From Minisyncoccota bacterium (lineage in GTDB: Bacteria; Patescibacteriota; Minisyncoccia; Phycocordibacterales; CAIJYI01), in assembly GCA_023229825.1 (NCBI GenBank), contig JALNYN010000006.1, positions 255 through 64,254 of the forward strand: DNA of 64,000 nt. Reading direction: 5' to 3'. Both the position numbers and the translations under genes were made by a program. The notes under the pieces are model-generated. The model was not told the origin of the DNA, ran no database searches, and saw nothing but the letters and a program-made list of their open reading frames with translations. Shown piece by piece: positions 627 through 64,000 of this stretch; the first letter of the stretch is position 1; each line of letters starts with the position of its first letter.

Positions 627-3600
627 TTAATGTTTCTTTTTTGCGGGTTGAATAAACTCGTCCATTTGCGCGACAAGTTCGTCTATCACCGCGTTAATTC
701 TCAACGCCTGAATTTTCTCAATCTGCCACTTGTTCCCTATCTTTTTTTGAGAAAGAACCTGAATCTCTTTTTGCAAAACAACGAGTAATGCTTTTGTTGC
801 GATGTAATTCTTTTTCGCAAATTGTTTTTCTGCGACGGAAATTTGATTTAATAAAGAAGGACGAAGTTTTGAATCAAGTTTTTGAATTTCATTCTTTAAG
901 GTTTGGAAAGTGATAGTTTCTTTGTTCTCTTCCGTAAAAACGATTGAGTCAATTGTTCCGTTCCCATCGTTATCAAGAGCGAGTTCCTTTGCGTCATTTA
1001 AAGTACTCATTAGGAGCGTTGCTTTTGTTGAGGTGCTCACGGGTATATCGGTGAAGGTTTGCGATGCTTCTTTAACATCTCCTTGGTACTGTTCCAATTC
1101 AAGAGTAAATACGCCTGTTCCGATGCCTTGCAATTTGATTGTAGTGCTTGCTTCCAATTGGAAACCCAAATACTTCCCTTCTCCCATTTCTAAATAGTAT
1201 GAATTCGGCATTTCGGTATCATAAAAAGTGTAATTTGGAGTTGAGCTTGCTGAAATCCCTACATGGCCTCCTTGCTGGTTAAAAATATCTATCTGGACAG
1301 GAGATCGCAGAGAGAGACGCACTAGCTTTTTTAGACGAAACAAATCAAGCTGGCTTTTATCTGTTTTAATAAACCACAAATCTTTTTCTGGGTTTGGCGT
1401 GTTTTCGATAATTTTGCTTATCAAAGTTCTAGTGCTATCAACCTCAAGTATTGAAGCGTGAGATCTGTTTTTTTGAAGCCCGCCAAATAAAAAATAATAT
1501 GAGTTATTGTGTTCATTCAAATCCACAAAATACGTCTCCGTTGCCGTCGCCATTCCGATCTGGCTCGGCAAAACCACTCTGCCGTCACCGTCAAAAGTAA
1601 ACATCGGCTCAACATCAAGCTTACCTTCATCCCAGCAAAAGGTATTCATTCCCGCATTATTGCAGTACTGATGAAAATTTCCTTTGTATTCCAATCCGCG
1701 AATAGTGTCGGGAATTCCCCATCCGGCAATTTGTATAACGCGCATGCTTTTATGCGGAACCCAAGTGTCTATGTCATCATGAATTAATTGGGCGTTTTGT
1801 AACATATCCGTCCTCACCAATTTCGGATGGGAGAGATCATCATCCGGCGCCTGAGAACGACCGTAGTCTTTCCCGCTTAGGTAGTCCCGCAATCCCTCGT
1901 AAGCGGTTATCGTGGTTGTTCCATAATTCGTTTGATAAAAATCGAGTACCTTGGACGCATCATAAATCGGGTCACCGCTTAAGTTTCGCAGATTTTTGTT
2001 TTGGGAAATGATAGTTGTGTAGTTTTGGTTTTCGTCTATCACTCGTTCGATATATTTTTTTGACGGCAAAAGCGTATAGATCGATGGCATTTGCTGAGCG
2101 ACGCGCCGCCCTGTTTCTTTGTCGGACAATATTCCGCCCCACTCAGGAATATCTTCTTTTGTTCCATGTAAAAGCGTCGCGATCGCGTCCGGAGTGCCGA
2201 GTTGGGGTGAATCTACAAGAATAAGCATTTCGGTGCTGGTCGCGATATCGCTGTAGTCGTGAAGAATTTTTTTTGAGAGAAGTCCTCCCATTGAGTGCCC
2301 GATAATGGTAACCTTGCCCGTATCAGAGGTTTTGGCGAGGTTGCGAATTTCAGTGAGAAGATGCTCTTTGTCGGTTCCATATTTATCGTCATAATATATA
2401 TGCCCGTTTGGTGCTACATATCCATTGCTTAGTATTTGCGGAAAAGCGAGGCGCCAATCATAAGCGAGGACGCGGTAATCTTTCATCATCCCGTCAGTTT
2501 TCCATGTTTCTAGGTCTACAAGAAAACTTGAATATATGTTACTCGCCTTAAACCCGACATCTATAACCCCTGCATTTCCCCACTTGGTATATATGTCAGG
2601 GTTATCGCTTGAGCCGGCAGGTTTCATCATGAGTTCGTTGGTATCAGTCCACCAATTCGGTTCCCAAAGCTGGTCCTCGCAATCAGGATTGCTGCAGTCG
2701 TATTTGAATAGTCGCGACGCCTTAATCCCCGGCAAAAACGCTACATTACTATACCCTGTCATAAATATATACTCCGAGTTTTCCAGCTTCACCGTTCCGT
2801 CTTCCGTTTCGAAATGGTAATGATACGTTCCTTTCGAGAAGGTTAAGGTTCTTGAAAACGCTTCGCCGTTTGCGAGATTTCCATCGTGATATTCGATCGG
2901 AGTGGTTGTGGAAGTATCCGGAGCCATGCCGAGTTTGATCTCCCCCTGCGGACCGGTAAAGACAAGTCTGATGTGAGGGGTTGAAGCGGATGTGTCGGTA
3001 TACACGACTTTGAATAAGAAATTGGTTTTGTCCGCGGCCCCTCTTCGATCTTGGATGAGATCGTCTTCCCAGACGGAACCGTATTGCAAAGTTTTTTGAG
3101 ATGGAGAAACGGCATGTATCGGTCTGGCGTAAGGAAATTGATCGATAAGCGTTATTGGTACATCCGTCGGACGGTTCCAGTACAGTTCGTTTGTGATGGC
3201 GCTGAATTGATAAGGTGAATCGCAGAAACCGTCATTGGCGCTATCGGTACATTGATTATCGCTCAAGTAATTTCCTCCTTTCGGTAGTGGCGCTGAAATA
3301 GTAATGGTCGGAGCATAGGAAGATGCGGAAGACGGAAAAATGCTTTGTGTGTTATTCAAAAAATCATTTCGATAGATAGAGGTTGTTCCTTCATTTACGG
3401 CAACGAAATTCAATCCTATTCCGTTGTTTTCCACAATATTGTCGTGTACGGCATTCCGAACGTCCGTGCAATTCGTGGAAAAGTCTATACCGACAGCAAG
3501 ACCTTTTACTGTGTTTTCGGAAATATCCACTACGGTATCAGGAGATATCAGAGGCCGAAAACACGGTAATGACGGTACATACCAGGGACTCAATATACGT

Positions 3601-4685
3601 CCGAATGAAATGCCGGATGTGTTATCGCCTTGCGAAACAATAGTATTTTTACGCACGGATACGCTCTCAAAAATTCCCCCTCGTCCTCCGTAGACCATGA
3701 TCCCCGTGCCGTTTTGCAGAACATTAACGGTATTTCCTTCTATAATCACTTGTCTTGGTTCGCTGTCGAGAGCAATTGCATTAAGAATATTTAGAAATAC
3801 GTTATTTCGAATAGTAATGAAATATGGAATAAGCTCCGGATTTCCTCCATATACCCCGACATCGGTAATGTTTTGGAATGTATTATTGGCGATAATCGTG
3901 TTCGTGGATGAATTGTTAAATATTCCCTTTGCCCAGCTGTCAATGGTAAGATTTTTTATTGTGGTGTTATTTCGCCGAATATCCCCAGAACCTCTGAAAT
4001 ATATTGCACCCAAGTACGTGGTTCCGTCGCTTAATGTCGTATGTCCGTTTCCGTCGAGAGTAATGCCGTTATCATCAACCTGTATAGTCTCGTTTATATC
4101 TTGCGTGAGGGTGCAGGTTTTGGTTGATTGATCCCAAGCTCCGATCAAGGTACAGTCTCCTCCTGTCGCGTTATCTTTGATGAATTTTGTGCTTTTTTTA
4201 GTTTGGATGAAAACAAAATGATTTATCGCCATGTCTTGAGTATAGGTGTAGATTCCGTTATCGTCAGTGGTGAACTGCGTTAGGTTGTGATAATCGTCGT
4301 CATATTTATAGTAGGTTGTGTTTTTAAGAAAACCGGAGAGCGTAATTTGAGTTGTTGTTGCGTTGGTGGAAGTAGCTTTCTCTAATAGCATGGTCACCAC
4401 TTTCGGTTTTGAAGTGAAGTGAAGGTCGATGTTTTCGGTACTGTCGAGAGTGATGTTCAAATATTCGCTGTCGGTGATGGTGAAATGGGTGCCGATTCCG
4501 GAGATCTCGCCTTTTATTTGGAAGGGATCGTTTGGAATAAAATTCGACGGAGCAGGATTTAATGAGGCGAGCGTTTTTTGAGCGTACAAAATTCCGGCAA
4601 ATGTACTGCTGAGCAGCGCAACAATCGCCATTACAGTAAGAAAGATCTGACGGTGAATAGGTTTTGCCAAAAACTTTTTGTACAT
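627..4685 (-). CDS. large secreted multi-domain protein: N-terminal signal/anchor, right-handed beta-helix (pectate-lyase/NosD-like) region, LCAT/PGAP1-like alpha/beta-hydrolase lipase domain, C-terminal coiled coil
   Basis: 1352-aa ORF with N-terminal hydrophobic segment MAIVALLSSTFAGILYAQ. Repeated N-x-(V/I/F)-x-N / GG-containing beta-helix-like repeats (IANNTFQNITDVGVYGG, IRNNVFLNILNAIALD, IEGNTVNVLQNGTGIMVYGG). Lipase nucleophile-elbow GHSMGG (TIIGHSMGGLLSK) preceded by AYDWR, the (F/Y)DWR motif of LCAT/PDAT-type acyltransferases. Confidence 0.8.
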   Translation of the reverse strand: MYKKFLAKPIHRQIFLTVMAIVALLSSTFAGILYAQKTLASLNPAPSNFIPNDPFQIKGEISGIGTHFTITDSEYLNITLDSTENIDLHFTSKPKVVTMLLEKATSTNATTTQITLSGFLKNTTYYKYDDDYHNLTQFTTDDNGIYTYTQDMAINHFVFIQTKKSTKFIKDNATGGDCTLIGAWDQSTKTCTLTQDINETIQVDDNGITLDGNGHTTLSDGTTYLGAIYFRGSGDIRRNNTTIKNLTIDSWAKGIFNNSSTNTIIANNTFQNITDVGVYGGNPELIPYFITIRNNVFLNILNAIALDSEPRQVIIEGNTVNVLQNGTGIMVYGGRGGIFESVSVRKNTIVSQGDNTSGISFGRILSPWYVPSLPCFRPLISPDTVVDISENTVKGLAVGIDFSTNCTDVRNAVHDNIVENNGIGLNFVAVNEGTTSIYRNDFLNNTQSIFPSSASSYAPTITISAPLPKGGNYLSDNQCTDSANDGFCDSPYQFSAITNELYWNRPTDVPITLIDQFPYARPIHAVSPSQKTLQYGSVWEDDLIQDRRGAADKTNFLFKVVYTDTSASTPHIRLVFTGPQGEIKLGMAPDTSTTTPIEYHDGNLANGEAFSRTLTFSKGTYHYHFETEDGTVKLENSEYIFMTGYSNVAFLPGIKASRLFKYDCSNPDCEDQLWEPNWWTDTNELMMKPAGSSDNPDIYTKWGNAGVIDVGFKASNIYSSFLVDLETWKTDGMMKDYRVLAYDWRLAFPQILSNGYVAPNGHIYYDDKYGTDKEHLLTEIRNLAKTSDTGKVTIIGHSMGGLLSKKILHDYSDIATSTEMLILVDSPQLGTPDAIATLLHGTKEDIPEWGGILSDKETGRRVAQQMPSIYTLLPSKKYIERVIDENQNYTTIISQNKNLRNLSGDPIYDASKVLDFYQTNYGTTTITAYEGLRDYLSGKDYGRSQAPDDDLSHPKLVRTDMLQNAQLIHDDIDTWVPHKSMRVIQIAGWGIPDTIRGLEYKGNFHQYCNNAGMNTFCWDEGKLDVEPMFTFDGDGRVVLPSQIGMATATETYFVDLNEHNNSYYFLFGGLQKNRSHASILEVDSTRTLISKIIENTPNPEKDLWFIKTDKSQLDLFRLKKLVRLSLRSPVQIDIFNQQGGHVGISASSTPNYTFYDTEMPNSYYLEMGEGKYLGFQLEASTTIKLQGIGTGVFTLELEQYQGDVKEASQTFTDIPVSTSTKATLLMSTLNDAKELALDNDGNGTIDSIVFTEENKETITFQTLKNEIQKLDSKLRPSLLNQISVAEKQFAKKNYIATKALLVVLQKEIQVLSQKKIGNKWQIEKIQALRINAVIDELVAQMDEFIQPAKKKH

Positions 4686-7691: not shown

Positions 7692-9126
7692 TTTGATGTT
7701 TGGGGATGTTAATGATAAATGCCGTTCCTTTGCGCGGCTCGCTCACGACCTCTATGGTACCATGAAAATCATTTTCAACAATTCTTTTTACGGTATACAA
7801 TCCGAGTCCGGTTCCTTTGCCTTCTTTTGTGGTAAAGAACGGATCGAATATCTTTTCCAAATTTTCTTTGGCGATGCCAACGCCTCGATCAGAAACGGTA
7901 AATATCACTCTGCCGTTTTTTTGTACTAACGAAAGCGCTACTTCTTTTTTTTCATTCGCCTGCGATGAAGCATGCGCATCGATCGCATTGGATGCCAGAT
8001 TGAGCGCGACTTGCCCCCACTTCGGTGCGCTCCCGAATATTTTAATATTTTCCGGTGCGGTTAGTTTGATCCCGACGTTCGCTTTTATGGCTTTGTGCAG
8101 CAAAACTTCAATGATCTGTTTCGTTTCTTCATTCACGGAAAACGTCGTTTTGTGTTCTTCGTTGGCGATCTGTTTGCGAACGGCAATGACAAAGTCCTCC
8201 ATTCTTTTTGAAGCGGCGATAGCTTTGTTCAAATATATTTTTGTTTCGTACAATGCGCTTTTTTCTTCCGCCTTGACCATTTCCATATTCAGGGTAACCG
8301 CACTGAGAGGACTCATTAGATCATGAAAAAGTCCTGATGAAAGGCGCCCGAATTCGGCAAAACGATTGAGCTGTGTCATTTTTTCCAATTGCGCTTCTCT
8401 CAATTCTTTCGTCCTTTCCTGCACTTTCACTTCCAGAGAATCGCGCTCCGCTTTCAGCGCCACTTCGGAATTTCTCGCGCGCGCCAAAGATTTTTCGATC
8501 TCGCGGTTGGAAAGCCATGAGACGGTGGCGATGATCATGAATATTACCGAAACCATAACAACATCTTTTACACTCCAGACATCGGTCATCCAATATCGAT
8601 TAACGCTTATCGCTTCACTCCATTCAAGATGTCCCACAAAAAACAGAACAGCACAGACCATTAAAGTCACGATAAACGCGAAACGGGCATGTATAAGTAT
8701 GCCCGACATGACAATGATCAACACATAGAATAAAAGAGCTACCTGAATCTCAACCCCCCACCGATAGGTCATGTAGACGGCGAGCAGAAAAAAAACGCTC
8801 AATAAAGCATATGATGAAAACCGCGAATAACCACACCGCGATAAAATAAACAGCGCGAAAAAAAATAAAAAAATTACGGAAAGAACGAATAAAGATATCG
8901 TATTATTTGCGTATGATTGTAGCCCGGTGTCACGAAAAATCAGATGGATAAGTAAACCTACGAAGACAAGCATGATTGCCAAAACCAAAAGGATATTCAG
9001 AATAAATTCTTGCCGTGATATGTCGGGGTCCGACGATTTTGGCAATATAAGTTTTTTGGCACTGTAAAAAATTTTCTGCATACAAGACGAAATATCAAAG
9101 GTTCCGCATAGACAATAACAACCCAA
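7684..9126 (-). CDS. membrane sensor histidine kinase
   Basis: 480 aa; ~6 N-terminal TM helices, H-box FHDLMSPLSAV, N/G boxes LASNAIDAH, SDRGVGI, GTGLGLYTVKRIV. Confidence 0.85.
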   Translation of the reverse strand: MGCYCLCGTFDISSCMQKIFYSAKKLILPKSSDPDISRQEFILNILLVLAIMLVFVGLLIHLIFRDTGLQSYANNTISLFVLSVIFLFFFALFILSRCGYSRFSSYALLSVFFLLAVYMTYRWGVEIQVALLFYVLIIVMSGILIHARFAFIVTLMVCAVLFFVGHLEWSEAISVNRYWMTDVWSVKDVVMVSVIFMIIATVSWLSNREIEKSLARARNSEVALKAERDSLEVKVQERTKELREAQLEKMTQLNRFAEFGRLSSGLFHDLMSPLSAVTLNMEMVKAEEKSALYETKIYLNKAIAASKRMEDFVIAVRKQIANEEHKTTFSVNEETKQIIEVLLHKAIKANVGIKLTAPENIKIFGSAPKWGQVALNLASNAIDAHASSQANEKKEVALSLVQKNGRVIFTVSDRGVGIAKENLEKIFDPFFTTKEGKGTGLGLYTVKRIVENDFHGTIEVVSEPRKGTAFIINIPKHQNG

Positions 9127-19163: not shown

Positions 19164-19540
19164 TTACATGGTAAATCCAAGCGACAACGGATCGATCCTT
19201 ATTATCTTGTCATCGTCTTCTTTTGGCGCGCCTCTCCCGTCGCAATTGTTCGTTAAAATATAGAGCATACCATCGGGACCGGTGACCACAGTTCGCAGCC
19301 TGCCGAACTCGCCGCTGTAATATTTTTTTGGCTGAGAGATTTTTCCCCGCACATCGACAAGATCAAATGACCATTTACATAGGTCATGCCGGAAGGCGCC
19401 CAAGCTTCCTTCTCTCCGGAATGCAAGATCGGAGACTCCATCCCTTCCTGGGTTTTGTTTCCTTCGATCACCGGCCAGCCATAATTCTTTCCGGCCTCGA
19501 TCTTATTCAGTTCGTCAAATCCGGATAGGATCCCGGATCT
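19164..19540 (-). pseudogene. truncated, frameshifted remnant of a PQQ-dependent sugar (glucose/sorbosone) dehydrogenase
   Basis: two overlapping minus-strand frames encode NYGWPVIEGNKTQEGMESPILHSGEKEAWAPSGMTYVNGHL and PDGMLYILTNNCDGRGAPKEDDDKIIRIDP, which are C-terminal beta-propeller motifs of sorbosone-dehydrogenase-type enzymes; only ~120 aa of a ~370-aa enzyme remain. Confidence 0.6.
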
Positions 19541-19553
19541 TCATTGAAAGAAA

Positions 19554-20168
19554 ATGATTTCCTCAGGCGTACTAAATCTCTCGCGCAAAAAAGCGCGAAT
19601 TTATTATTATTCTATTTTTTGTATGATTGCAAAATCTACTATTGCAAAAACGGTCGGCATTCTTGCCGTTCCTCTTGCTATTATCGGACTCGTTTCGACA
19701 TTCCCAGCCGAAACCAAATTGCAAAGCGCAAACGCTGCGAGCGCAGACATGTTCCTTGAAATTGAAGGAATTCCGGGTGAGGCAGGCACAACCCAAAGCG
19801 GCATTGAGATCGAGTCGTGGTCATGGGGAGCGAGCAATCCGAGTAGCGTCGGATCGGGTGGCATGGGGTCGGGAAAAGTCAGTATGCAAGACTTCCATTT
19901 TATGAGAACTTCGGATAACTCCTCGCTTCACGTTCTGCAAGCCGCAGCAAAAGGAACACATTTTCCTAAAGCAACACTCCGCATCGTCAAACCTGACGGA
20001 AGCGCTACAAAAATAACTCTATCTGATTTGATCGTAAGTTCCTACGGAGCAAGTTCCGGAAACGGATCGCCGACCGAATCCTTCACCCTCAATTTCCAAA
20101 AAATTGAATGGACATACGAAAACGGAAAAACATTCACCTGGGATTTAAAAAAGGGAACGAAAATTTAA
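19554..20168 (+). CDS. Hcp (T6SS tube protein)-family protein with N-terminal signal peptide / anchor
   Basis: 204 aa; from ADMFLEIEGIPGEAGTTQSGIEIESWSWGASN...GKVSMQDFHFMRTSDNSSLHVLQAAAKGTHFPKATLRIVKPDGS...SDLIVSSYGASSGNGSPTESFTLNFQKIEWTY aligns motif-for-motif with Hcp1 (DMFLKLDGIKGES...EIDVLSWSWG...FQDLSFTK...ASP.L..A...G.H...A.L...K.GG...Y....L.DV.V.S......G..P.E...LNF.KI...Y); preceded by hydrophobic TVGILAVPLAIIGLVSTFPA; probable true start at 19623. Confidence 0.7.
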   Translation: MISSGVLNLSRKKARIYYYSIFCMIAKSTIAKTVGILAVPLAIIGLVSTFPAETKLQSANAASADMFLEIEGIPGEAGTTQSGIEIESWSWGASNPSSVGSGGMGSGKVSMQDFHFMRTSDNSSLHVLQAAAKGTHFPKATLRIVKPDGSATKITLSDLIVSSYGASSGNGSPTESFTLNFQKIEWTYENGKTFTWDLKKGTKI

Positions 20169-20349
20169 TAAAAAAGAGCACACCAACCTGCGTGCTCTTT
20201 TTTCATCAGAGTAATTTGCTCTGACCCTATACCCTCGCCTATTGTTAGAGCTTAATATGATTTAAAGAATTTATGCCCAATGTAGTAACGGAGTGACGGA
20301 CTTGCCGATCCATCGGTCGCATTCAGACAAATTAACTCAATATTGTTTT

Positions 20350-32253: not shown

Positions 32254-33390
32254 TTAAAATAGAACTAAATCTGCTTTAAATTCATCGGGAAGTCCACACT
32301 GATTATTGCCTAAACATTTATTTTGTACTAAAGTAATATCTTTTTTTGTAACATTTCCCAAAAGTTCCAACACTTTGAAAAAAACATCATTGTCTTTAAA
32401 ATGATTAATCTCAAATTCTGATATAAGTTTCTTTTTAATCAACCCTTTTGTGAATTCATCACATCTACTAAAAATAAATTTTAATTTGGGTTGATCAAGT
32501 AAAAATTCGCGAGGCTTGAATCGATTCGTTCCTTCATATAAGAAATCTATAATTTCCCGGTATAACGTATTTTTTTCTTTATATTGAAAAGTTAAGCTTG
32601 AATATAGAAACCCAACGACAGATCTGCCCGAATTTAAACACAACAAAGCGTGATGTCTCTCGGGGATGACTTTCTGAACATGTCTGTCCCCCATTTGATT
32701 TGATAGTTCGTCTATTGAATCAATTATACTTATGAGAGAGGATGTTAGTTTCTTTGCGTGAGCATTAGTTTTATTTTCTGGTGCCAAGTTCAATAAATTT
32801 TTTACTTTTTTATAGTCTTCACCAAGAGACCCTGTACCATATATTTCTTCACCTGTTATCCTCCTATAAATATCAAAGGTTGCTGCTTCAATTGAAGACC
32901 TTACGCAAGTCAAAACGCCGGAATAATCTCCTTTGTCAAAGAGTTTTTGAGATTTTGCAAGTTGTTCTTTTAAAAATTTGTATTGTATTTCAATATTTTT
33001 TTCAAATTCTGCGTGCTCTCCCAATTCTAAATCATTCTTGTTCATTTCCAAAACATTGATATTTGAATCATCTCTCCTTATGAGAAAAAATATTCCTTGA
33101 ATTTCTATGCTATTGTCGCCATGAGGATACAAATCAAGAACCGCATCTAAAATTATTTTTTTATCTTCAGTACTAATACTTTTACTTTTAACAAAGGCAT
33201 CTAATGGTAGGTATATATTGAAATAAGAAATTACTGAATTCATGTAACTTCCAAATTGTCCTGTTTGTTCAACTTCACTCTTTGCTCCATTAAGAAAATC
33301 TTGCAAATCATTTCTTTTTTGCTTTTCTAGTAATTTCTTTATTATTTGTATATCTTCATTTTCCATAAAATTACGAATCGTGGGTACCAA
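32254..33390 (-). CDS. hypothetical protein, second gene of AT-rich RT island
   Basis: 378-aa ORF starting 16 bp after the RT stop; Lys/Glu-rich alpha-helical; SNQMGDRHVQKVIPERHHALL segment; no P-loop or canonical HEPN Rx4-6H found. Confidence 0.6.
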   Translation of the reverse strand: MVPTIRNFMENEDIQIIKKLLEKQKRNDLQDFLNGAKSEVEQTGQFGSYMNSVISYFNIYLPLDAFVKSKSISTEDKKIILDAVLDLYPHGDNSIEIQGIFFLIRRDDSNINVLEMNKNDLELGEHAEFEKNIEIQYKFLKEQLAKSQKLFDKGDYSGVLTCVRSSIEAATFDIYRRITGEEIYGTGSLGEDYKKVKNLLNLAPENKTNAHAKKLTSSLISIIDSIDELSNQMGDRHVQKVIPERHHALLCLNSGRSVVGFLYSSLTFQYKEKNTLYREIIDFLYEGTNRFKPREFLLDQPKLKFIFSRCDEFTKGLIKKKLISEFEINHFKDNDVFFKVLELLGNVTKKDITLVQNKCLGNNQCGLPDEFKADLVLF

Positions 33391-33406
33391 TCAATATCCC
33401 GAATAC

Positions 33407-34951
33407 CTACATTAAATCTGAATTAGCAAAAATATCAACCTCACTTGTTTTAGGAATCTTCGATATTTTCACTAACTTAGTTTTATTTATAAAGTTATTA
33501 TTATTCAACAGACCCATTAAATCAATATCCGTTATGAAATGATTACCAAAAATACTTTTTTTCTCTATTTGGGAAATGACACAACAAATCTTATCTTTAT
33601 AGTTTTTTGTCTTATCTACCTTAAAAAGACTTCTTTGTAACCAAATCTCATTATGACCAATATTGTTCATACTAAGAAGTTTCTCGTAAATACTATCGGA
33701 ATAATATTTTTGTTGCTTTTTATCTAGTTTTGGCAATAAATTAAATAGACTCACACAAACAACAGCAAAACACCTTGGGTTATTTGAAACTATATTAAGT
33801 AGAATGGTTATAAGAAGTTCAACCTCTCTTTTGTACCACTTCTTCTTTTTTTCATAAAATTTTCTCTGATTAAAATGTTGAAGCATTTTTAAAATAAAAC
33901 CGGAGTTAGGATACGATTTTGAAATATTTAGAACATCCAGCAAAAGCCTTTTAAGCTTATAAACATCTATCTCCTTATCTGTTCCGATATGATAAATTAT
34001 GTTATCTAATTTATCTTTTTTAATGGACATCAGGGTTATGTCTTCGCCAATTTCTGTCTTGTTCGTATTTAATTTAAAATTGAAGTCAGTCAAAATTTCA
34101 GATAAAATTTTTATAATTTTCTCGTTATCATTTTGTTCTTTTGTAAAAATTCTGTAGTCATCACGATACCTTATAATTTCATATTCGGTAATTTTTTCAC
34201 AGATTAATTTATCACCTAGTATCTTGTCGATATGAGTTAAGATAATTTCGGCGATAAAATCCATTAACACACTACCCTGAGGAATACCATTAGTTTGCCC
34301 ATTTTGAGTAGCACGCAACAAAAAATCTATATCATTTCCAACTAATGGCAGATCCGTTTTTTTACCTTTTGTTTGAAAGTTGTTTTTTATATTATCCTTA
34401 GCAATTTTTTTTGTGTGCAAAGCCCACGCAATGGAATGAGTATAAACTGAAGGATAACAATCCGCGATATCAAGTTTTGATATATATTTAAATTTTAGTG
34501 ATTTCTTAATGCTGTCTTTTTCGATCTCTTCTAAATATGAAAGTATTTGAGTCATTTTTTGTTTTTTGTGACTTTTCTGTTTTTTAAAAATTTGACAATA
34601 TTTTAACTTATCAACTTTGTTTTCTTGAAAATGTTTTTGAATAAGTTGCCAGTTACCCACAATGACATCAACCAGTTTAAGATAAATAATTGGATGTATG
34701 AGCTGAAATTTTCTCCACGCATATCTACCGTCTTTATTGTTGTAAATAAAGTATGAAGTCGTGTCTCCTTGGGCATTTAAAATATTAAATCCTACCTTAA
34801 ATTTACTAATTTCTTTTAAGAATTTTTTGAAATCAAAATACTCTGGTAAATCTAAATTGCAATAAGATTCAGACTCAAGAAAAAATCTTTTTGCTTCATC
34901 TTTAGTTAAATTTATAATAGGTTCTCTTTTCATGGCTGAAATTGGGTTCAA
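33407..34951 (-). CDS. reverse transcriptase of the Abi/defence-associated type (RT domain + ~200-aa C-terminal helical domain)
   Basis: 514 aa; RT motif A KLDIADCYPSVYTHSIAWAL, motif B' NGIPQGSVLMDFIAEIILTHIDK, motif C YXDD as IIRYRDDYRIF; no RNase H, integrase, maturase-X or endonuclease domain; low-GC, first gene of a 3-gene operon. Confidence 0.8.
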   Translation of the reverse strand: MNPISAMKREPIINLTKDEAKRFFLESESYCNLDLPEYFDFKKFLKEISKFKVGFNILNAQGDTTSYFIYNNKDGRYAWRKFQLIHPIIYLKLVDVIVGNWQLIQKHFQENKVDKLKYCQIFKKQKSHKKQKMTQILSYLEEIEKDSIKKSLKFKYISKLDIADCYPSVYTHSIAWALHTKKIAKDNIKNNFQTKGKKTDLPLVGNDIDFLLRATQNGQTNGIPQGSVLMDFIAEIILTHIDKILGDKLICEKITEYEIIRYRDDYRIFTKEQNDNEKIIKILSEILTDFNFKLNTNKTEIGEDITLMSIKKDKLDNIIYHIGTDKEIDVYKLKRLLLDVLNISKSYPNSGFILKMLQHFNQRKFYEKKKKWYKREVELLITILLNIVSNNPRCFAVVCVSLFNLLPKLDKKQQKYYSDSIYEKLLSMNNIGHNEIWLQRSLFKVDKTKNYKDKICCVISQIEKKSIFGNHFITDIDLMGLLNNNNFINKTKLVKISKIPKTSEVDIFANSDLM

Positions 34952-35066: not shown

Positions 35067-35071
35067 CGTGC

Positions 35072-35140
35072 TGCGGGACTTGGATTCGAACCAAGATGAC
35101 GACTTTCAGAGAGTCGCATCCTACCATTAGATGATCCCGC
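35072..35140 (-). tRNA. tRNA-Gln(CTG)
   Basis: minus-strand cloverleaf gcgggat-ca-tctaatggtagga-...cgact-cTCTGaa-agtcg...cttgg-ttcgaat-ccaag-gtcccgc; 3-bp D stem typical of tRNA-Gln; no encoded CCA. Confidence 0.8.
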
Positions 35141-35146
35141 AATTTA

Positions 35147-43103: not shown

Positions 43104-44951
43104 TTACTCCACCGTAACCGATTTCGCAAGATTTCGCGGTTTATCTACGTCTTTTCCTCGCTGAACCGCCACGTGATAAGCAAAAAGCTGAAGCGGAACG
43201 ACCGCCACGATCGGAGCTAAAAGTTCGTCCACTTCGGGAATAAGAATAACTTCCGTTCCTTCGTCTTTGACGATCTTGGTTTCAGGCGAAGCGAAAATGA
43301 ACAGCTTTCCGTTGCGGGCGCGGACCTCTTTCAGATTGGATTGGAGTTTCCCTGCGAGCGCGTCGTTCGGAGCCACGGCAATGACCGGCATGTTCTCATC
43401 GACGAGAGCCAAAGGTCCGTGTTTCAATTCTCCCGCCTGATACCCTTCCGCGTGTATGTATGAAATTTCTTTCAGCTTGAGCGCGCCTTCGAGGGCGATC
43501 GGATACTCAATGCCTCGTCCAAGGAACAGGCAATGTTCCTTCTCCGTGAATTTCGGTGCAAGTCTGTGCAGAGTCGAATCAAGCTCTAACGCTTCTTCTA
43601 CTTTTTCCGGCAGAGTAAGCAACCCTTTCATGATCTTTTTATCGATCTCTTTCGGAAGCGTGCGGCGGATGCGGCCGAGTACGACCGTCAGGAGAAGAAA
43701 AGCGACCAACTGTGTCGTAAAGGCTTTTGTGGATGCCACACCGATCTCTTTTCCAGCGCGGGTTAAGAACGCGAGATCTGTTCCGCGAGTAAGCGAACTT
43801 TCGGGAACATTGCAGATCGCGAGCGTGTGAGAATTCGGACTTTCTCGCTTTACCATGTTGAGACAGGCCAGAGTATCGGCTGTTTCTCCCGATTGCGATA
43901 TGAACACGTAGAGCGTACCTTTTCGAAAGCGCGGCTCCCGGTAACGATACTCGCTGGCGACATCAACATTGCACGGCAAGTCCGCGAGCGGTTCGATCCA
44001 ATATCTTGCGGCAAGTCCGGCATGATAGCTCGTCCCGCATGCGATGATCTGTATGGAAGATATTTTTCGGAAGACCGATAATGCTTTGGCTCCGAATGCT
44101 CGCACATCGATCTCCCCTTTTTTCATCGCTTGTTCTATCGTGCTCTTGATCGCCTGCGGCTGATCATACATTTCCTTCTGCATATAATGCTGGAATCCGT
44201 GAAGCGACATATCCGCCGCCGAGATCTCGCTCGTTATCATCGGACGATCAACGCGTTTTCCGCTCGCATTGCGTATGACGCAGCTGTCAGCGAAAATTTC
44301 CGCCACATCGCCGTCTTCGAGATACGTGAACTGATTTGTTTCATCGATGAGTGCGGAAACATCCGATGCCACGAACATCTTCTCATTGCCAAAACCTACG
44401 ACGAGCGGACTTCCAAAACGTGCGGCGACGATCCGATCGGGTGCACTCCCGCTGATGACGGCAATGGCATACGCACCTTTGAGTTCGTGAACCGCTTTTT
44501 CCACAGCTTCGAAAAGGTCTTTCTGTTTGCTCAAATTCAAGTAGTGATGCACGAGATGCGCGATCACTTCCGTATCGGTGTCTGAAACGAATTTGTATCC
44601 TTCCGATTCGAGGCGCGTCCGCAATTTTTCATGATTCTCGATAATGCCGTTGTGTACCACCGCCACCTCGTTGTTATGCGAAAGATGAGGATGTGCATTC
44701 GCTTCGGAAGGAACTCCGTGAGTTGCCCATCTCGTATGGGCGATCCCAACGGCTCCGTTCAGCTCTCTCTTTTTCAGCTTCTTTTCCAGCTCGGCCACTT
44801 TTCCGACCGATTTGACGCATTCTATTTTGCCGTTCTCGATAACGGCAACGCCCGCGGAATCATATCCGCGATATTCAAGAGCGCGAAGCCCGCTTAACAA
44901 AACAGGCATCGCTTTCGTATTTTTTTGAACTGCTCCAACTATTCCACACAT
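43104..44951 (-). CDS. glmS: glutamine--fructose-6-phosphate aminotransferase
   Basis: 615 aa; N-terminal MCGIVGAV (Ntn glutaminase Cys2), two SIS domains, C-terminal KSVTVE. Confidence 0.95.
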   Translation of the reverse strand: MCGIVGAVQKNTKAMPVLLSGLRALEYRGYDSAGVAVIENGKIECVKSVGKVAELEKKLKKRELNGAVGIAHTRWATHGVPSEANAHPHLSHNNEVAVVHNGIIENHEKLRTRLESEGYKFVSDTDTEVIAHLVHHYLNLSKQKDLFEAVEKAVHELKGAYAIAVISGSAPDRIVAARFGSPLVVGFGNEKMFVASDVSALIDETNQFTYLEDGDVAEIFADSCVIRNASGKRVDRPMITSEISAADMSLHGFQHYMQKEMYDQPQAIKSTIEQAMKKGEIDVRAFGAKALSVFRKISSIQIIACGTSYHAGLAARYWIEPLADLPCNVDVASEYRYREPRFRKGTLYVFISQSGETADTLACLNMVKRESPNSHTLAICNVPESSLTRGTDLAFLTRAGKEIGVASTKAFTTQLVAFLLLTVVLGRIRRTLPKEIDKKIMKGLLTLPEKVEEALELDSTLHRLAPKFTEKEHCLFLGRGIEYPIALEGALKLKEISYIHAEGYQAGELKHGPLALVDENMPVIAVAPNDALAGKLQSNLKEVRARNGKLFIFASPETKIVKDEGTEVILIPEVDELLAPIVAVVPLQLFAYHVAVQRGKDVDKPRNLAKSVTVE

Positions 44952-62825: not shown

Positions 62826-63389
62826 TTATATGGAGCTCTTAACGACGATATTTATGCTGTACGGAAAGTTCGATTCGCTTATCAGTGAAGATATTGGCAG
62901 ATCGACGGATTCGAAATTATTGTTTTTACGGAGAAGTCTGACAAAAGTTTGAATGACTTCCCTCCCCTCAGATACCCCTTGAAGAACTATGGTCGTAGTC
63001 GGATCGGTTTTTTTTCTTCCCGCCGCTATCGTCCGGTAATCATAACCCGCGATCGAAACGCCCTCCGGACGCGCCTTTAATATCTCATCGAAGATAGCGC
63101 CGGCATTATTTTTCGCGATCGGCTCTTTAAGCAGCGAGATCTTTTTATTTGCGTCAAGAACCGCTTGTTTCATTTCGTCTGCCTGCGTTTTTTTGCTGAC
63201 GGCCTCCGCGCTTTGGGATTCTTTAAGAGTATTTTTGTTTGAAACCTGAGCGAAGTAATAAGATGGAAAAAGCGAAACGATCGCAACAGAGAGCACTCCG
63301 GCAGATAGAGGAAGACACACGGAAACCACCCTCCAATAATAATCGGTGCGAATCTTCTTTTTTTCTTCAAAGGGTAAAAGATTGATCAT
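62826..63389 (-). CDS. pilN: type IV pilus assembly protein PilN
   Basis: 187 aa; hallmark N-terminal MINLLPFEEKKK then TM VVSVCLPLSAGVLSVAIVSLF. Confidence 0.75.
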   Translation of the reverse strand: MINLLPFEEKKKIRTDYYWRVVSVCLPLSAGVLSVAIVSLFPSYYFAQVSNKNTLKESQSAEAVSKKTQADEMKQAVLDANKKISLLKEPIAKNNAGAIFDEILKARPEGVSIAGYDYRTIAAGRKKTDPTTTIVLQGVSEGREVIQTFVRLLRKNNNFESVDLPISSLISESNFPYSINIVVKSSI

Positions 63390-63402
63390 TTTTTATATAT
63401 TA

Positions 63403-64000
63403 CTATTGCGAGTTCTTCGTATACATAGCCAGACCGATCGCGGTTGAGTACAAAAGAGATTCGTGAAATGTGATCTTGGGGATGTTTTCATCGAAAGAAA
63501 AAAGATTTCCCCAGACATTCGCCACGTCTACCGGAATATGCAGCGTAGCAGAAAGATAGTCCTGCAGACCGAATAGCGTAGCTCCCGATCCGCCAAGAAC
63601 CACCCTGCCCACCTTTTCTTTTTTTTGTCCGTCTTTGTCTTTGTGCGTATGCCAGAAAATGAAATGCTTGTTGACCTCTTCCTCCAATTCCGAAAAAACC
63701 GAAGCGATTATTTCGTGAGCCTCCTTTTCCGGTTTTTCATTCTGTTCCAATTTCTTATACAACTCCTTCGCTTCTTCCGAAGATATGTTCAGCCCTTTCG
63801 AAAGAGCATTTGAAATATCCTTTCCGCCGATATCGATATCTGAAACAAAAGAAACAAAACCGCGGCTTACGATATATACGCCGGTCTTTATGCGGCCAAG
63901 ATCAAGGATCATGGTAGTTTCCGTGCTTCCTTCCGGAATAACGGAACGAGCGAGCGCAGTGGAGTCGGTTTCGAGAGACAATAAGGAGATACCGGCAGAA
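63403..64000 (-). CDS. pilM: type IV pilus assembly protein PilM (actin-like ATPase), C-terminal part; runs off window
   Basis: frame stays open to position 64000; ILDLGRIKTGVYIV, DIDIGGKDI, VVLGGSGATLFGLQDYL match PilM/FtsA-like fold. Confidence 0.75.
   Translation of the reverse strand, partial: SAGISLLSLETDSTALARSVIPEGSTETTMILDLGRIKTGVYIVSRGFVSFVSDIDIGGKDISNALSKGLNISSEEAKELYKKLEQNEKPEKEAHEIIASVFSELEEEVNKHFIFWHTHKDKDGQKKEKVGRVVLGGSGATLFGLQDYLSATLHIPVDVANVWGNLFSFDENIPKITFHESLLYSTAIGLAMYTKNSQ

What the first reader, a model, noticed from the sequence alone, without database searches (positions are those of the whole stretch)
19554..20168. Hcp (type VI secretion tube)-family protein with a signal peptide and no T6SS neighbourhood
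The C-terminal ~160 aa align motif-for-motif with Hcp1: DMFLEIEGIPGE, IEIESWSWG, FQDFHFMRT, HFPKATL, ESFTLNFQKIEWTY. The protein also carries an N-terminal hydrophobic export-like segment. No TssB/C, VgrG or other T6SS genes are nearby. Its neighbours are a decayed PQQ-dehydrogenase pseudogene and a tiny peptide gene. Orphan, Sec-exported Hcp-like proteins are poorly understood and would be unexpected in a reduced genome.
Basis: partly seen in the sequence, partly recalled or inferred. Interest (0 to 1): 0.55.

Follow-up and report, generated by a model that had tools for sequence, protein, structure and literature searches.

The report
Sec-exported orphan Hcp-like protein
A candidate-phylum (Paceibacterota) bacterium that should have no type VI secretion system encodes a well-conserved copy of that system's tube protein fitted with an export signal, and it is one member of a large, apparently undescribed class of exported Hcp proteins in single-membrane microbes.

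Summary
The ORF at 19554-20168 (+) encodes a true Hcp-family protein: Pfam T6SS_HCP E=9e-27, P. aeruginosa Hcp1 E=1e-20, and an AlphaFold model that matches only Hcp crystal structures. The real start is most likely ATG 19623, giving 181 aa. Residues 1-38 form a Sec-type signal peptide ending ANA|ASAD, so cleavage would recreate the normal Hcp N-terminus. The gene is under purifying selection (dN/dS about 0.1) and has its own terminator. No T6SS gene lies anywhere in the 64-kb window.

The protein is not an oddity. Among its 150 closest cluster representatives, at least 48 single-domain proteins carry signal peptides with the consensus A-x-A|A-[AS]-x-D. Named genomes that hold such proteins include Nitrososphaeria archaea, CPR bacteria and Chloroflexi. 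T6SS core genes flank 62 of 69 signal-less relatives but 0 of 16 signal-bearing ones (p=3e-12). The signal-bearing forms have also lost the family's conserved cysteines (p=8e-19). Planctomycete relatives fuse six Hcp domains into one exported chain.

Best reading: a Sec-exported Hcp-fold protein that works outside any T6SS and probably forms rings outside the cell. Its role is unknown. Ring assembly, signal cleavage and T6SS absence across the whole genome were not tested.

The parts
19623..20168 (+). Gene for the 181-aa Hcp-like protein, stop codon included. This is the likely true coding region.
   Evidence: NCBI and the orthologues use this start. Pfam T6SS_HCP scores E=8.9e-27. dN/dS against the L006 orthologue is 0.12 over the whole gene.
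19623..19736 (+). Predicted Sec signal peptide, residues 1-38. The n-region is MIAKSTIAK, the h-region is TVGILAVPLAIIGLVSTF and the c-region is PAETKLQSANA. The predicted signal peptidase I site is ANA|AS.
   Evidence: The segment is strongly hydrophobic. The A-x-A|A-[AS]-x-D consensus is seen in 65 homologues. dN/dS is 0.21, so it is translated. AlphaFold confidence is low here, as expected for a signal peptide. No dedicated signal-peptide predictor was available.
19737..20165 (+). Mature Hcp-fold domain, residues 39-181. It contains no cysteine.
   Evidence: AlphaFold pLDDT is mostly above 90 over residues 41-181. The top 50 Foldseek PDB hits include Hcp crystal structures, Hcp fusion proteins and T6SS sheath-tube complexes, with E down to 2e-12. 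Cysteine loss is documented.
19554..19622 (+). In-frame upstream extension used in the 204-aa gene call. It is probably 5' leader, not coding sequence.
   Evidence: The orthologues lack it. It contains the conserved hairpin. JGI and ENA aa; NCBI aa.
19581..19598 (+). Short G+C hairpin (TCGCGC-AAAAAA-GCGCGA) followed by ATTATTATT. It is conserved upstream of all three CPR orthologues. It is a possible leader or regulatory element of unknown role.
   Evidence: In L003 the stem reads GCGT/ACGC, so pairing is kept.
20170..20203 (.). Bidirectional intrinsic-terminator hairpin with a 14-bp stem flanked by A and T runs, 2 nt after the stop codon. It makes the gene a single-gene transcription unit.
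   Evidence: and the sequence.
19164..19403 (-). Context only: remnant of the C-terminal end of a PQQ-dependent glucose/sorbosone dehydrogenase (pseudogene fragment).
   Evidence: PF07995 GSDH scores E=1.7e-4, 21.4 bits against a cut-off of 25, at profile positions 293-329 of 332.

Best explanation
The gene encodes an Hcp-fold protein that has been re-routed from the cytoplasm to the outside of the cell.

Proposed mechanism:
1. The protein is made with a 38-residue Sec signal peptide.
2. It is threaded through SecYEG and cut by signal peptidase I at ANA|ASAD.
3. The released protein of about 143 residues has the same N-terminus as an ordinary Hcp after loss of its initiator methionine.
4. The bacterium has a single membrane, so the mature protein ends up in the wall zone or the medium.
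5. There it most likely assembles into the six-membered rings typical of the fold.

It works without any contractile T6SS, as a free or surface-associated ring that could act as a scaffold, carrier or binding module. Its biological role is unknown.

Shown here: family, fold, selection, absence of T6SS genes nearby, and the family-wide link between signal peptide, no T6SS neighbours and no cysteines.

Inferred: cleavage, export, ring assembly and function.
For: **Fold and family**
- Pfam T6SS_HCP scores E=8.9e-27 and Hcp1 1y12 scores E=1e-20.
- The AlphaFold model has a mean pLDDT of 80.5, mostly above 90 in the domain.
- The top 50 Foldseek PDB hits include Hcp crystal structures, Hcp fusion proteins and T6SS sheath-tube complexes.

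**The gene is functional**
- dN/dS against the 71%-identical orthologue is 0.10 in the Hcp domain and 0.21 in the signal peptide.
- The gene has its own terminator.

**The signal peptide is a class feature**
- 21 of the top 120 homologues have a hydrophobic N-terminal extension.
- At least 48 single-domain proteins among the 150 best cluster representatives have one.
- In 65 such proteins, Ala dominates positions -6, -4 and -3 relative to the first-strand Asp (37, 33 and 50 of 65). This gives the consensus A-x-A|A-[AS]-x-D, and the window protein fits it exactly.
- One homologue (P0261) carries a twin-arginine-like leader, SRRTVLK.

**Independence from T6SS**
- No T6SS family was found in the window.
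- TssA, B, C, E, F, G, M, ClpV and TagJ were identified by Pfam. At least one of them lies within 6 kb of 62 of 69 signal-less Hcp loci but of 0 of 16 signal-bearing loci (Fisher p=3e-12). For loci of 8 kb or more the counts are 51 of 54 against 0 of 12.

**Hosts are mostly single-membrane lineages**
- Paceibacterota.
- Ca. Peribacteria, Nitrososphaera, Nitrosopumilaceae and Chloroflexi.
- An archaeal contig carrying eS30 and RadA.
- Patescibacteria are proposed to lack an outer membrane (PMC12102498).

**Adaptation to life outside the cytoplasm**
- 37 of 65 signal-bearing Hcp domains have no cysteine, against 1 of 108 canonical ones (p=8e-19).
- The two cysteines conserved in canonical relatives are replaced.

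**Ring assembly**
- Planctomycete relatives have exactly six tandem Hcp domains behind a 'Planctomycete extracellular' N-terminal motif.
- The AlphaFold model of one of them has pTM 0.76 over 1125 residues, which implies fixed packing of the six domains.
Against: - No signal-peptide predictor was available, so cleavage is inferred from the (-3,-1) rule alone.
- In the CPR clade the hydrophobic core is long (18 residues) and lies 11 residues before the AxA site. An uncleaved membrane anchor is therefore possible.
- Ring assembly of this protein was not modelled, because the tool predicts single chains only. Coordinates of the six-domain model could not be inspected, so a ring is inferred from pTM alone.
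- Only 64 kb of the genome was examined.
- Signal-bearing and canonical forms are interleaved in a rough neighbour-joining tree.
- The sequences counted in the statistics are phylogenetically related, so the p-values overstate independence.
- A few signal-bearing members come from MAGs labelled as double-membrane bacteria (Saprospiraceae, Akkermansia).
- NCBIfam TIGR03344 scores only 23.4 bits against a cut-off of 58.9.
- No experimental data exist, and the literature search found nothing.
Confidence: 0.6

Rival explanations
1. The N-terminal segment is not cleaved. It acts as a signal-anchor, so the Hcp domain, and any ring it forms, is tethered to the outer face of the cytoplasmic membrane by one helix per subunit.
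For: The h-region is 18 residues long, close to transmembrane length. It is followed by an 11-residue spacer before the AxA site in the window protein, and P0002 and P0003 have comparable layouts. Across the class the median gap between the hydrophobic core and the first-strand Asp is 19 residues.
Against: The A-x-A|A motif sits at a fixed distance from strand 1 in 65 diverse homologues. Many of them, such as the archaeal forms MSKVLLLSLLFGIIATMGIGSAYA|ASADYF, are textbook short cleavable signal peptides. A conserved cleavage motif would not be needed in an anchor.
Confidence: 0.17
2. It is an ordinary cytoplasmic T6SS tube subunit. Its apparatus is encoded elsewhere in the genome, and the 'signal peptide' comes from an upstream start being called instead of Met43 (the M of DMFLE).
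For: Hcp genes can be orphans far from T6SS clusters. An ATG codon exists at Met43, and it is conserved in the three CPR orthologues. Only 64 kb of the genome was inspected.
Against: - The upstream 41 codons are under purifying selection (dN/dS 0.21, with dS 1.16) and keep their hydrophobic profile and AxA motif.
- Most class members have DYFLK with no Met at that position.
- A start at Met43 would remove the conserved Asp of strand 1.
- 0 of 16 signal-bearing loci have T6SS neighbours, against 62 of 69 signal-less loci.
- The host lineage is proposed to lack an outer membrane.
- The loss of cysteines fits an extracytoplasmic location.
Confidence: 0.06
3. It is a decaying or functionless relic of a horizontally acquired Hcp gene, or the contig is mis-binned from a double-membrane bacterium.
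For: The gene sits next to a pseudogene remnant. Its nearest canonical relatives are in Acidobacteriota and Planctomycetota. It has no conserved operon partner.
Against: - dN/dS is about 0.1.
- The ORF is intact in three lineages at 52-71% identity, with a conserved leader.
- The protein has two NCBI accessions, both labelled Paceibacterota.
- The GlmS encoded on the same contig has its closest named relatives (100%, 83% and 62% identity) in Paceibacterota.
- The window has CPR-like content, including PilM/PilN and many small proteins of unknown function.
Confidence: 0.04

Closest known systems
Canonical T6SS tube protein Hcp/TssD (for example P. aeruginosa Hcp1 PA0085, PDB 1y12)
   Same: - Same Pfam family (PF05638).
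- About 30-40% identity over the whole domain.
- Same predicted fold (Foldseek TM about 0.77 normalised to the target).
- Conserved motifs: DxFLxIxGIxGE, SWSWG, the Gly-rich loop followed by GKV, and LNFxKIE.
- The predicted mature N-terminus equals the canonical one.

   Different: - It carries a Sec signal peptide, whereas canonical Hcp has none and polymerises in the cytoplasm inside the sheath.
- No T6SS genes are nearby.
- The host is a CPR bacterium proposed to lack an outer membrane.
- It has no cysteines.
- Several loops are shorter, including a deletion of about 8-11 residues in the C-terminal hairpin.
- It scores below the TIGR03344 cut-off.

Signal-peptide Hcp-like proteins of Nitrososphaeria, other CPR, Chloroflexi and others (uncharacterised; P0002-P0017, L015, L028, L039, L071, L084)
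   Same: The architecture is the same: signal peptide, then AxA|A, then a single Hcp domain. These proteins have no T6SS neighbours and tend to lack cysteines. They are the window protein's closest relatives at 44-71% identity.
   Different: The archaeal forms have shorter, classical signal peptides. Some are paired with a second paralogue that carries C-terminal repeats. The Paceibacterota clade has its own loop deletions.
Six-domain 'hexa-Hcp' proteins of Pirellulales (for example P0121; P0270 of Pirellulaceae bacterium SH467)
   Same: They share the Hcp subfamily at about 41% identity per domain. They carry an N-terminal extracellular-targeting motif, and the one genomic locus examined has no T6SS neighbours.
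   Different: Six Hcp domains are fused in one chain of 1000-1150 aa. The N-terminal motif is the planctomycete LExLExRxLLA type rather than a classical signal peptide. The hosts are double-membrane bacteria.
Phage tail-tube and eCIS tube proteins (T4 gp19 and Afp1/Pvc1 type)
   Same: They belong to the same broad tail-tube fold superfamily and form hexameric rings. This rests on established knowledge and was not tested here.
   Different: They belong to different sequence families. They are assembled in the cytoplasm with a sheath and baseplate. No such genes are present in the window.

Membership tests
Pfam PF05638 T6SS_HCP (sequence family) | Score above the curated gathering threshold over the full-length model | tested here: met
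   94.4 bits against a cut-off of 23.5, E=8.9e-27, profile positions 1-129 of 129.
NCBIfam TIGR03344 VI_effect_Hcp1 (TssD subfamily) | Score above the curated cut-off | tested here: not met
   23.4 bits against a cut-off of 58.9.
Hcp/TssD structural family | Hcp beta-sandwich/barrel fold with one helix | tested here: met
   AlphaFold pLDDT is mostly above 90 over residues 41-181. The top 50 Foldseek PDB hits include Hcp crystal structures, Hcp fusion proteins and T6SS sheath-tube complexes, with E down to 2.4e-12 and TMt of 0.77-0.86.
Hcp/TssD structural family | Assembly into hexameric rings | not testable with these tools
   Only single chains can be predicted. Support is indirect: relatives have exactly six fused domains, and the model of one has pTM 0.76.
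Functional T6SS tube (TssD) | No N-terminal signal peptide; the tube is assembled in the cytoplasm on the baseplate inside the TssBC sheath | tested here: not met
   A 38-residue hydrophobic leader ends in ANA|AS. It is conserved and under selection.
Functional T6SS tube (TssD) | Genome encodes the T6SS core (TssA-M, VgrG), often next to hcp | tested here: not met
   None is present in the 64-kb window. 0 of 16 signal-bearing loci have T6SS genes within about 6 kb, against 62 of 69 signal-less loci. The rest of the genome could not be searched.
Functional T6SS tube (TssD) | Host has a double-membrane envelope that the machine spans | not testable with these tools
   The host is labelled Candidatus Paceibacterota. 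The literature proposes that Patescibacteria lack an outer membrane (PMC12102498).
Sec/SPase I secretory proteins | Tripartite n-h-c signal peptide with small residues at -3 and -1; no lipobox Cys; no prepilin motif | tested here: inconclusive
   The n-region has two Lys, the h-region is 18 hydrophobic residues and the c-region ends A-N-A|A. There is no Cys and no G|F/M-T-L motif. No trained predictor (SignalP) was available.

The most novel reading that the evidence does not exclude
Signal-peptide Hcp proteins are an unrecognised, widespread class of extracellular ring proteins that work without any T6SS. They are exported by Sec, and occasionally by Tat. They occur in single-membrane prokaryotes (CPR bacteria, ammonia-oxidising archaea, Chloroflexi), with single-chain six-domain versions in Planctomycetes. 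They represent a second, non-contractile career for the phage-tail-tube fold, for example as a surface scaffold, a cargo carrier or an element of contact between an episymbiont and its host.
Probability: 0.5. Interest if true: 0.78.

Novelty: new variant of a known kind. Interest (0 to 1): 0.62.

Why it matters
Hcp is a textbook marker of T6SS activity. It is defined as a protein that lacks a signal peptide and polymerises in the cytoplasm.

A large class of Hcp homologues with cleavable signal peptides, in organisms that have neither an outer membrane nor T6SS genes, would have three consequences:

1. Automatic 'T6SS tube protein' annotations in CPR, Thaumarchaeota and similar genomes mislead. 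Using Hcp as a T6SS marker in metagenomes overcounts.
2. The tail-tube fold has been recruited for an extracellular job that needs no contractile machine.
3. CPR episymbionts and ammonia-oxidising archaea carry a conserved secreted ring protein that may matter for surface architecture or cell-cell interaction.

The six-domain planctomycete proteins offer a natural single-chain Hcp ring that could serve structural and nanotechnology work.

Tried and rejected
- **Start at 19554 (204 aa).** Rejected in favour of 19623. The orthologues lack the extension, and a conserved hairpin lies inside it.
- **Internal start at Met43.** Considered and rejected.
- **Conserved operon partner.** All-against-all clustering of ORFs from 85 loci found none for signal-bearing Hcp genes. 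The only recurrent neighbour is a second Hcp paralogue in Nitrosopumilaceae, and RibD_C sits next to the gene in two CPR loci but on opposite sides.
- **Rfam.** The window gave five tRNA matches and nothing near the gene.
- **Literature.** Eight full-text searches for exported Hcp in CPR or archaea, or for tandem Hcp, found nothing relevant. A ninth gave only PMC12102498, which is cited on the Patescibacteria envelope. Subscription journals are not covered.
- **Exact-sequence look-up.** Three housekeeping proteins were not found, probably because their start codons are called differently.
- **AFDB fold search.** Not available on the machine.
- **Foldseek on the six-domain model.** It returned only single-domain Hcp hits, so it cannot confirm a ring.
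- **Neighbour-joining tree.** It did not resolve signal-bearing forms as one clean clade, so single or multiple gains of the signal peptide remain open.

Full report
**1. The observation**

The ORF at 19554-20168 (+) exists. Its product matches Pfam T6SS_HCP end to end (E=8.9e-27, 94.4 bits against a gathering score of 23.5). It also matches P. aeruginosa Hcp1 (PDB 1y12) at E=1.1e-20 over residues 60-192. NCBIfam's stricter TssD model TIGR03344 scores only 23.4 bits against a cut-off of 58.9.

An AlphaFold2 model built with 60 homologues has a mean pLDDT of 80.5. The Hcp domain (residues 41-181 of the 181-aa form) is mostly above 90, and the first 40 residues are low. Foldseek against the PDB returns Hcp structures throughout its top 50 hits: Hcp crystal structures such as 4w64, 1y12 and 5xhh, plus Hcp fusion proteins and T6SS sheath-tube complexes, with E down to 2e-12. 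The family and fold assignment is secure.

**2. Gene boundaries**

The identical protein has two NCBI accessions, both named 'type VI secretion system tube protein Hcp [Candidatus Paceibacterota bacterium]' (one flagged as a MAG), with 181 aa starting at ATG 19623. JGI and ENA call the 204-aa form. The two closest orthologues, P0002 (71% identity) and P0003 (52%), begin at the equivalent of 19623.

A short G+C hairpin lies between 19554 and 19623, at 19581-19598. It is followed by ATTATTATT, and all three loci conserve it upstream of the start. I therefore take 19623 as the start. A 14-bp bidirectional terminator hairpin follows 2 nt after the stop (20170-20203). The gene is a single-gene transcription unit.

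**3. The N-terminal segment**

Residues 1-38 read MIAKSTIAK / TVGILAVPLAIIGLVSTF / PAETKLQSANA and are followed by ASADMFLE. This is a positively charged n-region, an 18-residue hydrophobic core and a c-region ending A-N-A. It has no lipobox cysteine and no prepilin motif.

The segment evolves as coding sequence. Against the L006 orthologue its dN/dS is 0.21 (dS 1.16). The Hcp domain has dN/dS 0.10. This argues against an internal start at Met43 and against a decaying gene.

I collected 65 single-domain homologues with hydrophobic N-terminal extensions. In these, alanine dominates positions -6, -4 and -3 relative to the first-strand Asp (37, 33 and 50 of 65). The consensus is A-x-A|A-[AS]-x-D, and the window protein (A-N-A|A-S-A-D) fits it exactly. 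Cleavage there would leave an N-terminus equivalent to that of canonical Hcp ('MAAVDYFLK' minus its Met). No trained signal-peptide predictor was available, so cleavage remains an inference.

**4. Surroundings**

The precomputed annotation covers 20 kb around the gene. It shows RibD_C, a PKD-domain secreted protein, membrane proteins, an MFS transporter, RadC and many proteins without a family. My Pfam scans covered the ORFs of 120 aa or more outside that stretch, plus several close neighbours of the gene. They found:
- a two-component system;
- NUDIX, GlmS, GlnA and ribosomal protein L19;
- a reverse transcriptase with an Abi_C neighbour;
- PilM/PilN.

No TssA-M, VgrG, PAAR or ClpV turned up.

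The upstream neighbour is a sub-threshold remnant of the C-terminal end of a PQQ-dependent GSDH. The 43-aa ORF downstream has no family hit.

The GlmS gene on the same contig has its closest named relatives (100%, 83% and 62% identity) in Paceibacterota. Patescibacteria are proposed to lack an outer membrane (PMC12102498).

**5. The protein is one of a class**

In the word-indexed search, all ten best hits carry hydrophobic N-terminal extensions, as do 21 of the top 120. In the exhaustive HMMER search of 1.84 billion cluster representatives there were 6049 hits at E up to 0.001. The best 150 break down as follows:
- at least 48 single-domain proteins with signal-like extensions;
- about 16 canonical proteins of about 160 aa;
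- roughly 35 long multi-domain proteins.

In one-genome-per-species GTDB contigs, signal-bearing forms occur in these records:
- Nitrososphaera (L015, L029, L037);
- Nitrosopumilaceae (L039, L055, L084);
- Ca. Peribacteria (L028);
- a Chloroflexi MAG (L071);
- a groundwater 'bacterium' (L018);
- two MAGs labelled Saprospiraceae and Akkermansia.

P0013 sits on archaeal contigs beside eS30, RadA and DHODB. P0009 sits on a 122-kb contig with a sortase and a LysM-CHAP protein.

**6. Signal peptide and T6SS context exclude each other**

I clustered all ORFs of at least 90 aa from 85 Hcp loci. The recurrent neighbour families were identified by Pfam as TssC, TssB, TssE, TssA, TssF, TagJ/ImpE, TssG, ClpV and TssM. 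At least one of these lies in the flanks (about 6 kb) of 62 of 69 signal-less loci, but of 0 of 16 signal-bearing loci (Fisher p=3e-12). Restricted to loci of 8 kb or more, the counts are 51 of 54 against 0 of 12. No other gene family recurs next to signal-bearing Hcp genes, apart from a second Hcp paralogue in Nitrosopumilaceae.

**7. An independent signature of relocation**

The alignment columns that differ most between the two groups include two cysteines (window positions 108 and 121). They are Cys in 99 and 83 of 108 canonical proteins. In the signal-bearing group they are mostly Val, Ile, Ala or Leu. Overall, 37 of 65 signal-bearing Hcp domains have no cysteine at all, against 1 of 108 canonical ones (Fisher p=8e-19; Mann-Whitney p=3e-15). 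The window protein has none.

Avoidance of cysteine is a known property of exported proteins of single-membrane bacteria; this rests on established knowledge and was not tested here. The sequences are phylogenetically related, so these p-values overstate independence.

**8. Six-domain relatives**

The highest-scoring representatives are proteins of about 1000-1150 aa with exactly six T6SS_HCP domains. P0121 scores E=4.8e-213 with six stretches. They begin with the planctomycete motif LExLExRxLLA. P0135 carries PF07595, which I recall as the 'Planctomycete extracellular' family; the tool output gives only the accession number. They come from Pirellulaceae and Pirellulales. The copy in the complete genome of Pirellulaceae bacterium SH467 has no T6SS neighbours.

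AlphaFold predicts P0121 with pTM 0.76 over 1125 residues. Six independent beads would not give that value, so the domains are packed in a fixed arrangement. I could not inspect the coordinates. A pseudo-hexameric ring is the natural inference, but it is unproven. Six is the Hcp ring stoichiometry, so these proteins suggest that ring formation is what exported members of this subfamily retain.

**9. Mechanism**

A T6SS tube is polymerised in the cytoplasm on the baseplate inside the sheath (established knowledge). A Sec substrate is exported unfolded and cannot take part in that. The signal peptide, the missing T6SS genes, the single-membrane hosts and the cysteine loss all point the same way.

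I therefore propose that the protein is exported, cleaved at ANA|AS and then folds outside the membrane. It probably assembles into hexameric rings there and acts as a free or surface-associated ring. Possible roles are scaffold, carrier or binding module; the actual role is unknown.

My confidence is about 0.8 that the protein is exported and works independently of any T6SS. It is about 0.4-0.5 that it forms rings. The rivals are an uncleaved signal-anchor (0.17), a canonical tube subunit with a mis-called start (0.06), and a relic gene or mis-binned contig (0.04).

**10. Novelty**

Eight of the nine full-text searches looked for exported Hcp proteins in CPR or archaea, or for tandem Hcp proteins, and found no description of either. 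The ninth yielded only the Patescibacteria envelope paper cited above. The library lacks most subscription journals, so this is absence of evidence only.

The protein is a clear sequence and fold member of the Hcp family, but it fails the functional criteria for a T6SS tube. I rate it a new variant of a known kind. Current database names ('T6SS tube protein Hcp') are misleading for this class.

Noticed in passing
P0121-P0139 and P0267-P0279; L093:10001-13279 (Pirellulaceae bacterium SH467, CP197412): Planctomycete proteins of about 1000-1150 aa have exactly six tandem Hcp domains behind an LExLExRxLLA N-terminal motif. The one genomic locus examined has no T6SS neighbours. AlphaFold pTM is 0.76 for the 1125-aa P0121, which suggests a single-chain pseudo-hexameric ring. 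Forms with 2, 3, 4 and 5 domains, and fusions to PKD, cadherin or RTX-type repeats, also exist.
   Followed up: partly
L008:5470-6270 (-), L039:4996-5844 (-): In Nitrosopumilaceae the signal-peptide Hcp gene is paired divergently with a second signal-peptide Hcp paralogue of 266-282 aa. The paralogue carries two C-terminal repeats (P.WIKNNAKWW..G.I.D..F..GI.YL...GII) that no Pfam model recognises. They may form a surface-anchoring module.
   Followed up: partly
window 19581-19598; L006 about 424-437; L003 about 9023-9036: A conserved leader sits upstream of the three CPR Hcp orthologues. It is a short CGCG hairpin followed by ATTATTATT(T/C)TATT. L003 has an extra long hairpin before the start codon. 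There is no obvious Shine-Dalgarno sequence. It may be a regulatory or mRNA-stabilising element.
   Followed up: partly
window 32254-34951 (-): A low-GC island (29% GC against about 45% elsewhere) encodes a reverse transcriptase (RVT_1) next to a protein with an Abi_C domain. A tRNA lies at 35071-35141. It looks like an acquired RT-based abortive-infection or defence module.
   Followed up: no
L016, L043, L082 (Actinomycetota MAGs): These Hcp homologues have no signal peptide and no T6SS genes in their flanks, in a phylum not expected to have a T6SS. They form a third category, neither canonical nor signal-bearing.
   Followed up: no
P0061 (278 aa), P0053, P0025: Some signal-peptide Hcp proteins have several copies of a motif resembling strand 1 (NSFFDIFTE) between the signal peptide and the Hcp domain. 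P0261 has a twin-arginine-like leader (SRRTVLK) instead of a Sec-type one.
   Followed up: no
window 627-4685 (-): A 1352-aa protein whose only recognised part is an LCAT/PGAP1-type alpha/beta-hydrolase (lipase) domain. It could be a large lipase relevant to a host-dependent lifestyle.
   Followed up: no
window 62826-63981 (-): PilN and PilM type IV pilus assembly genes lie at the window edge, consistent with a CPR genome.
   Followed up: no
window 43104-44951 (-): Beyond its Paceibacterota relatives, the GlmS protein is 57-60% identical to Gamma- and Betaproteobacteria sequences. This is unusually close for a CPR housekeeping gene and may reflect old horizontal transfer.
   Followed up: no
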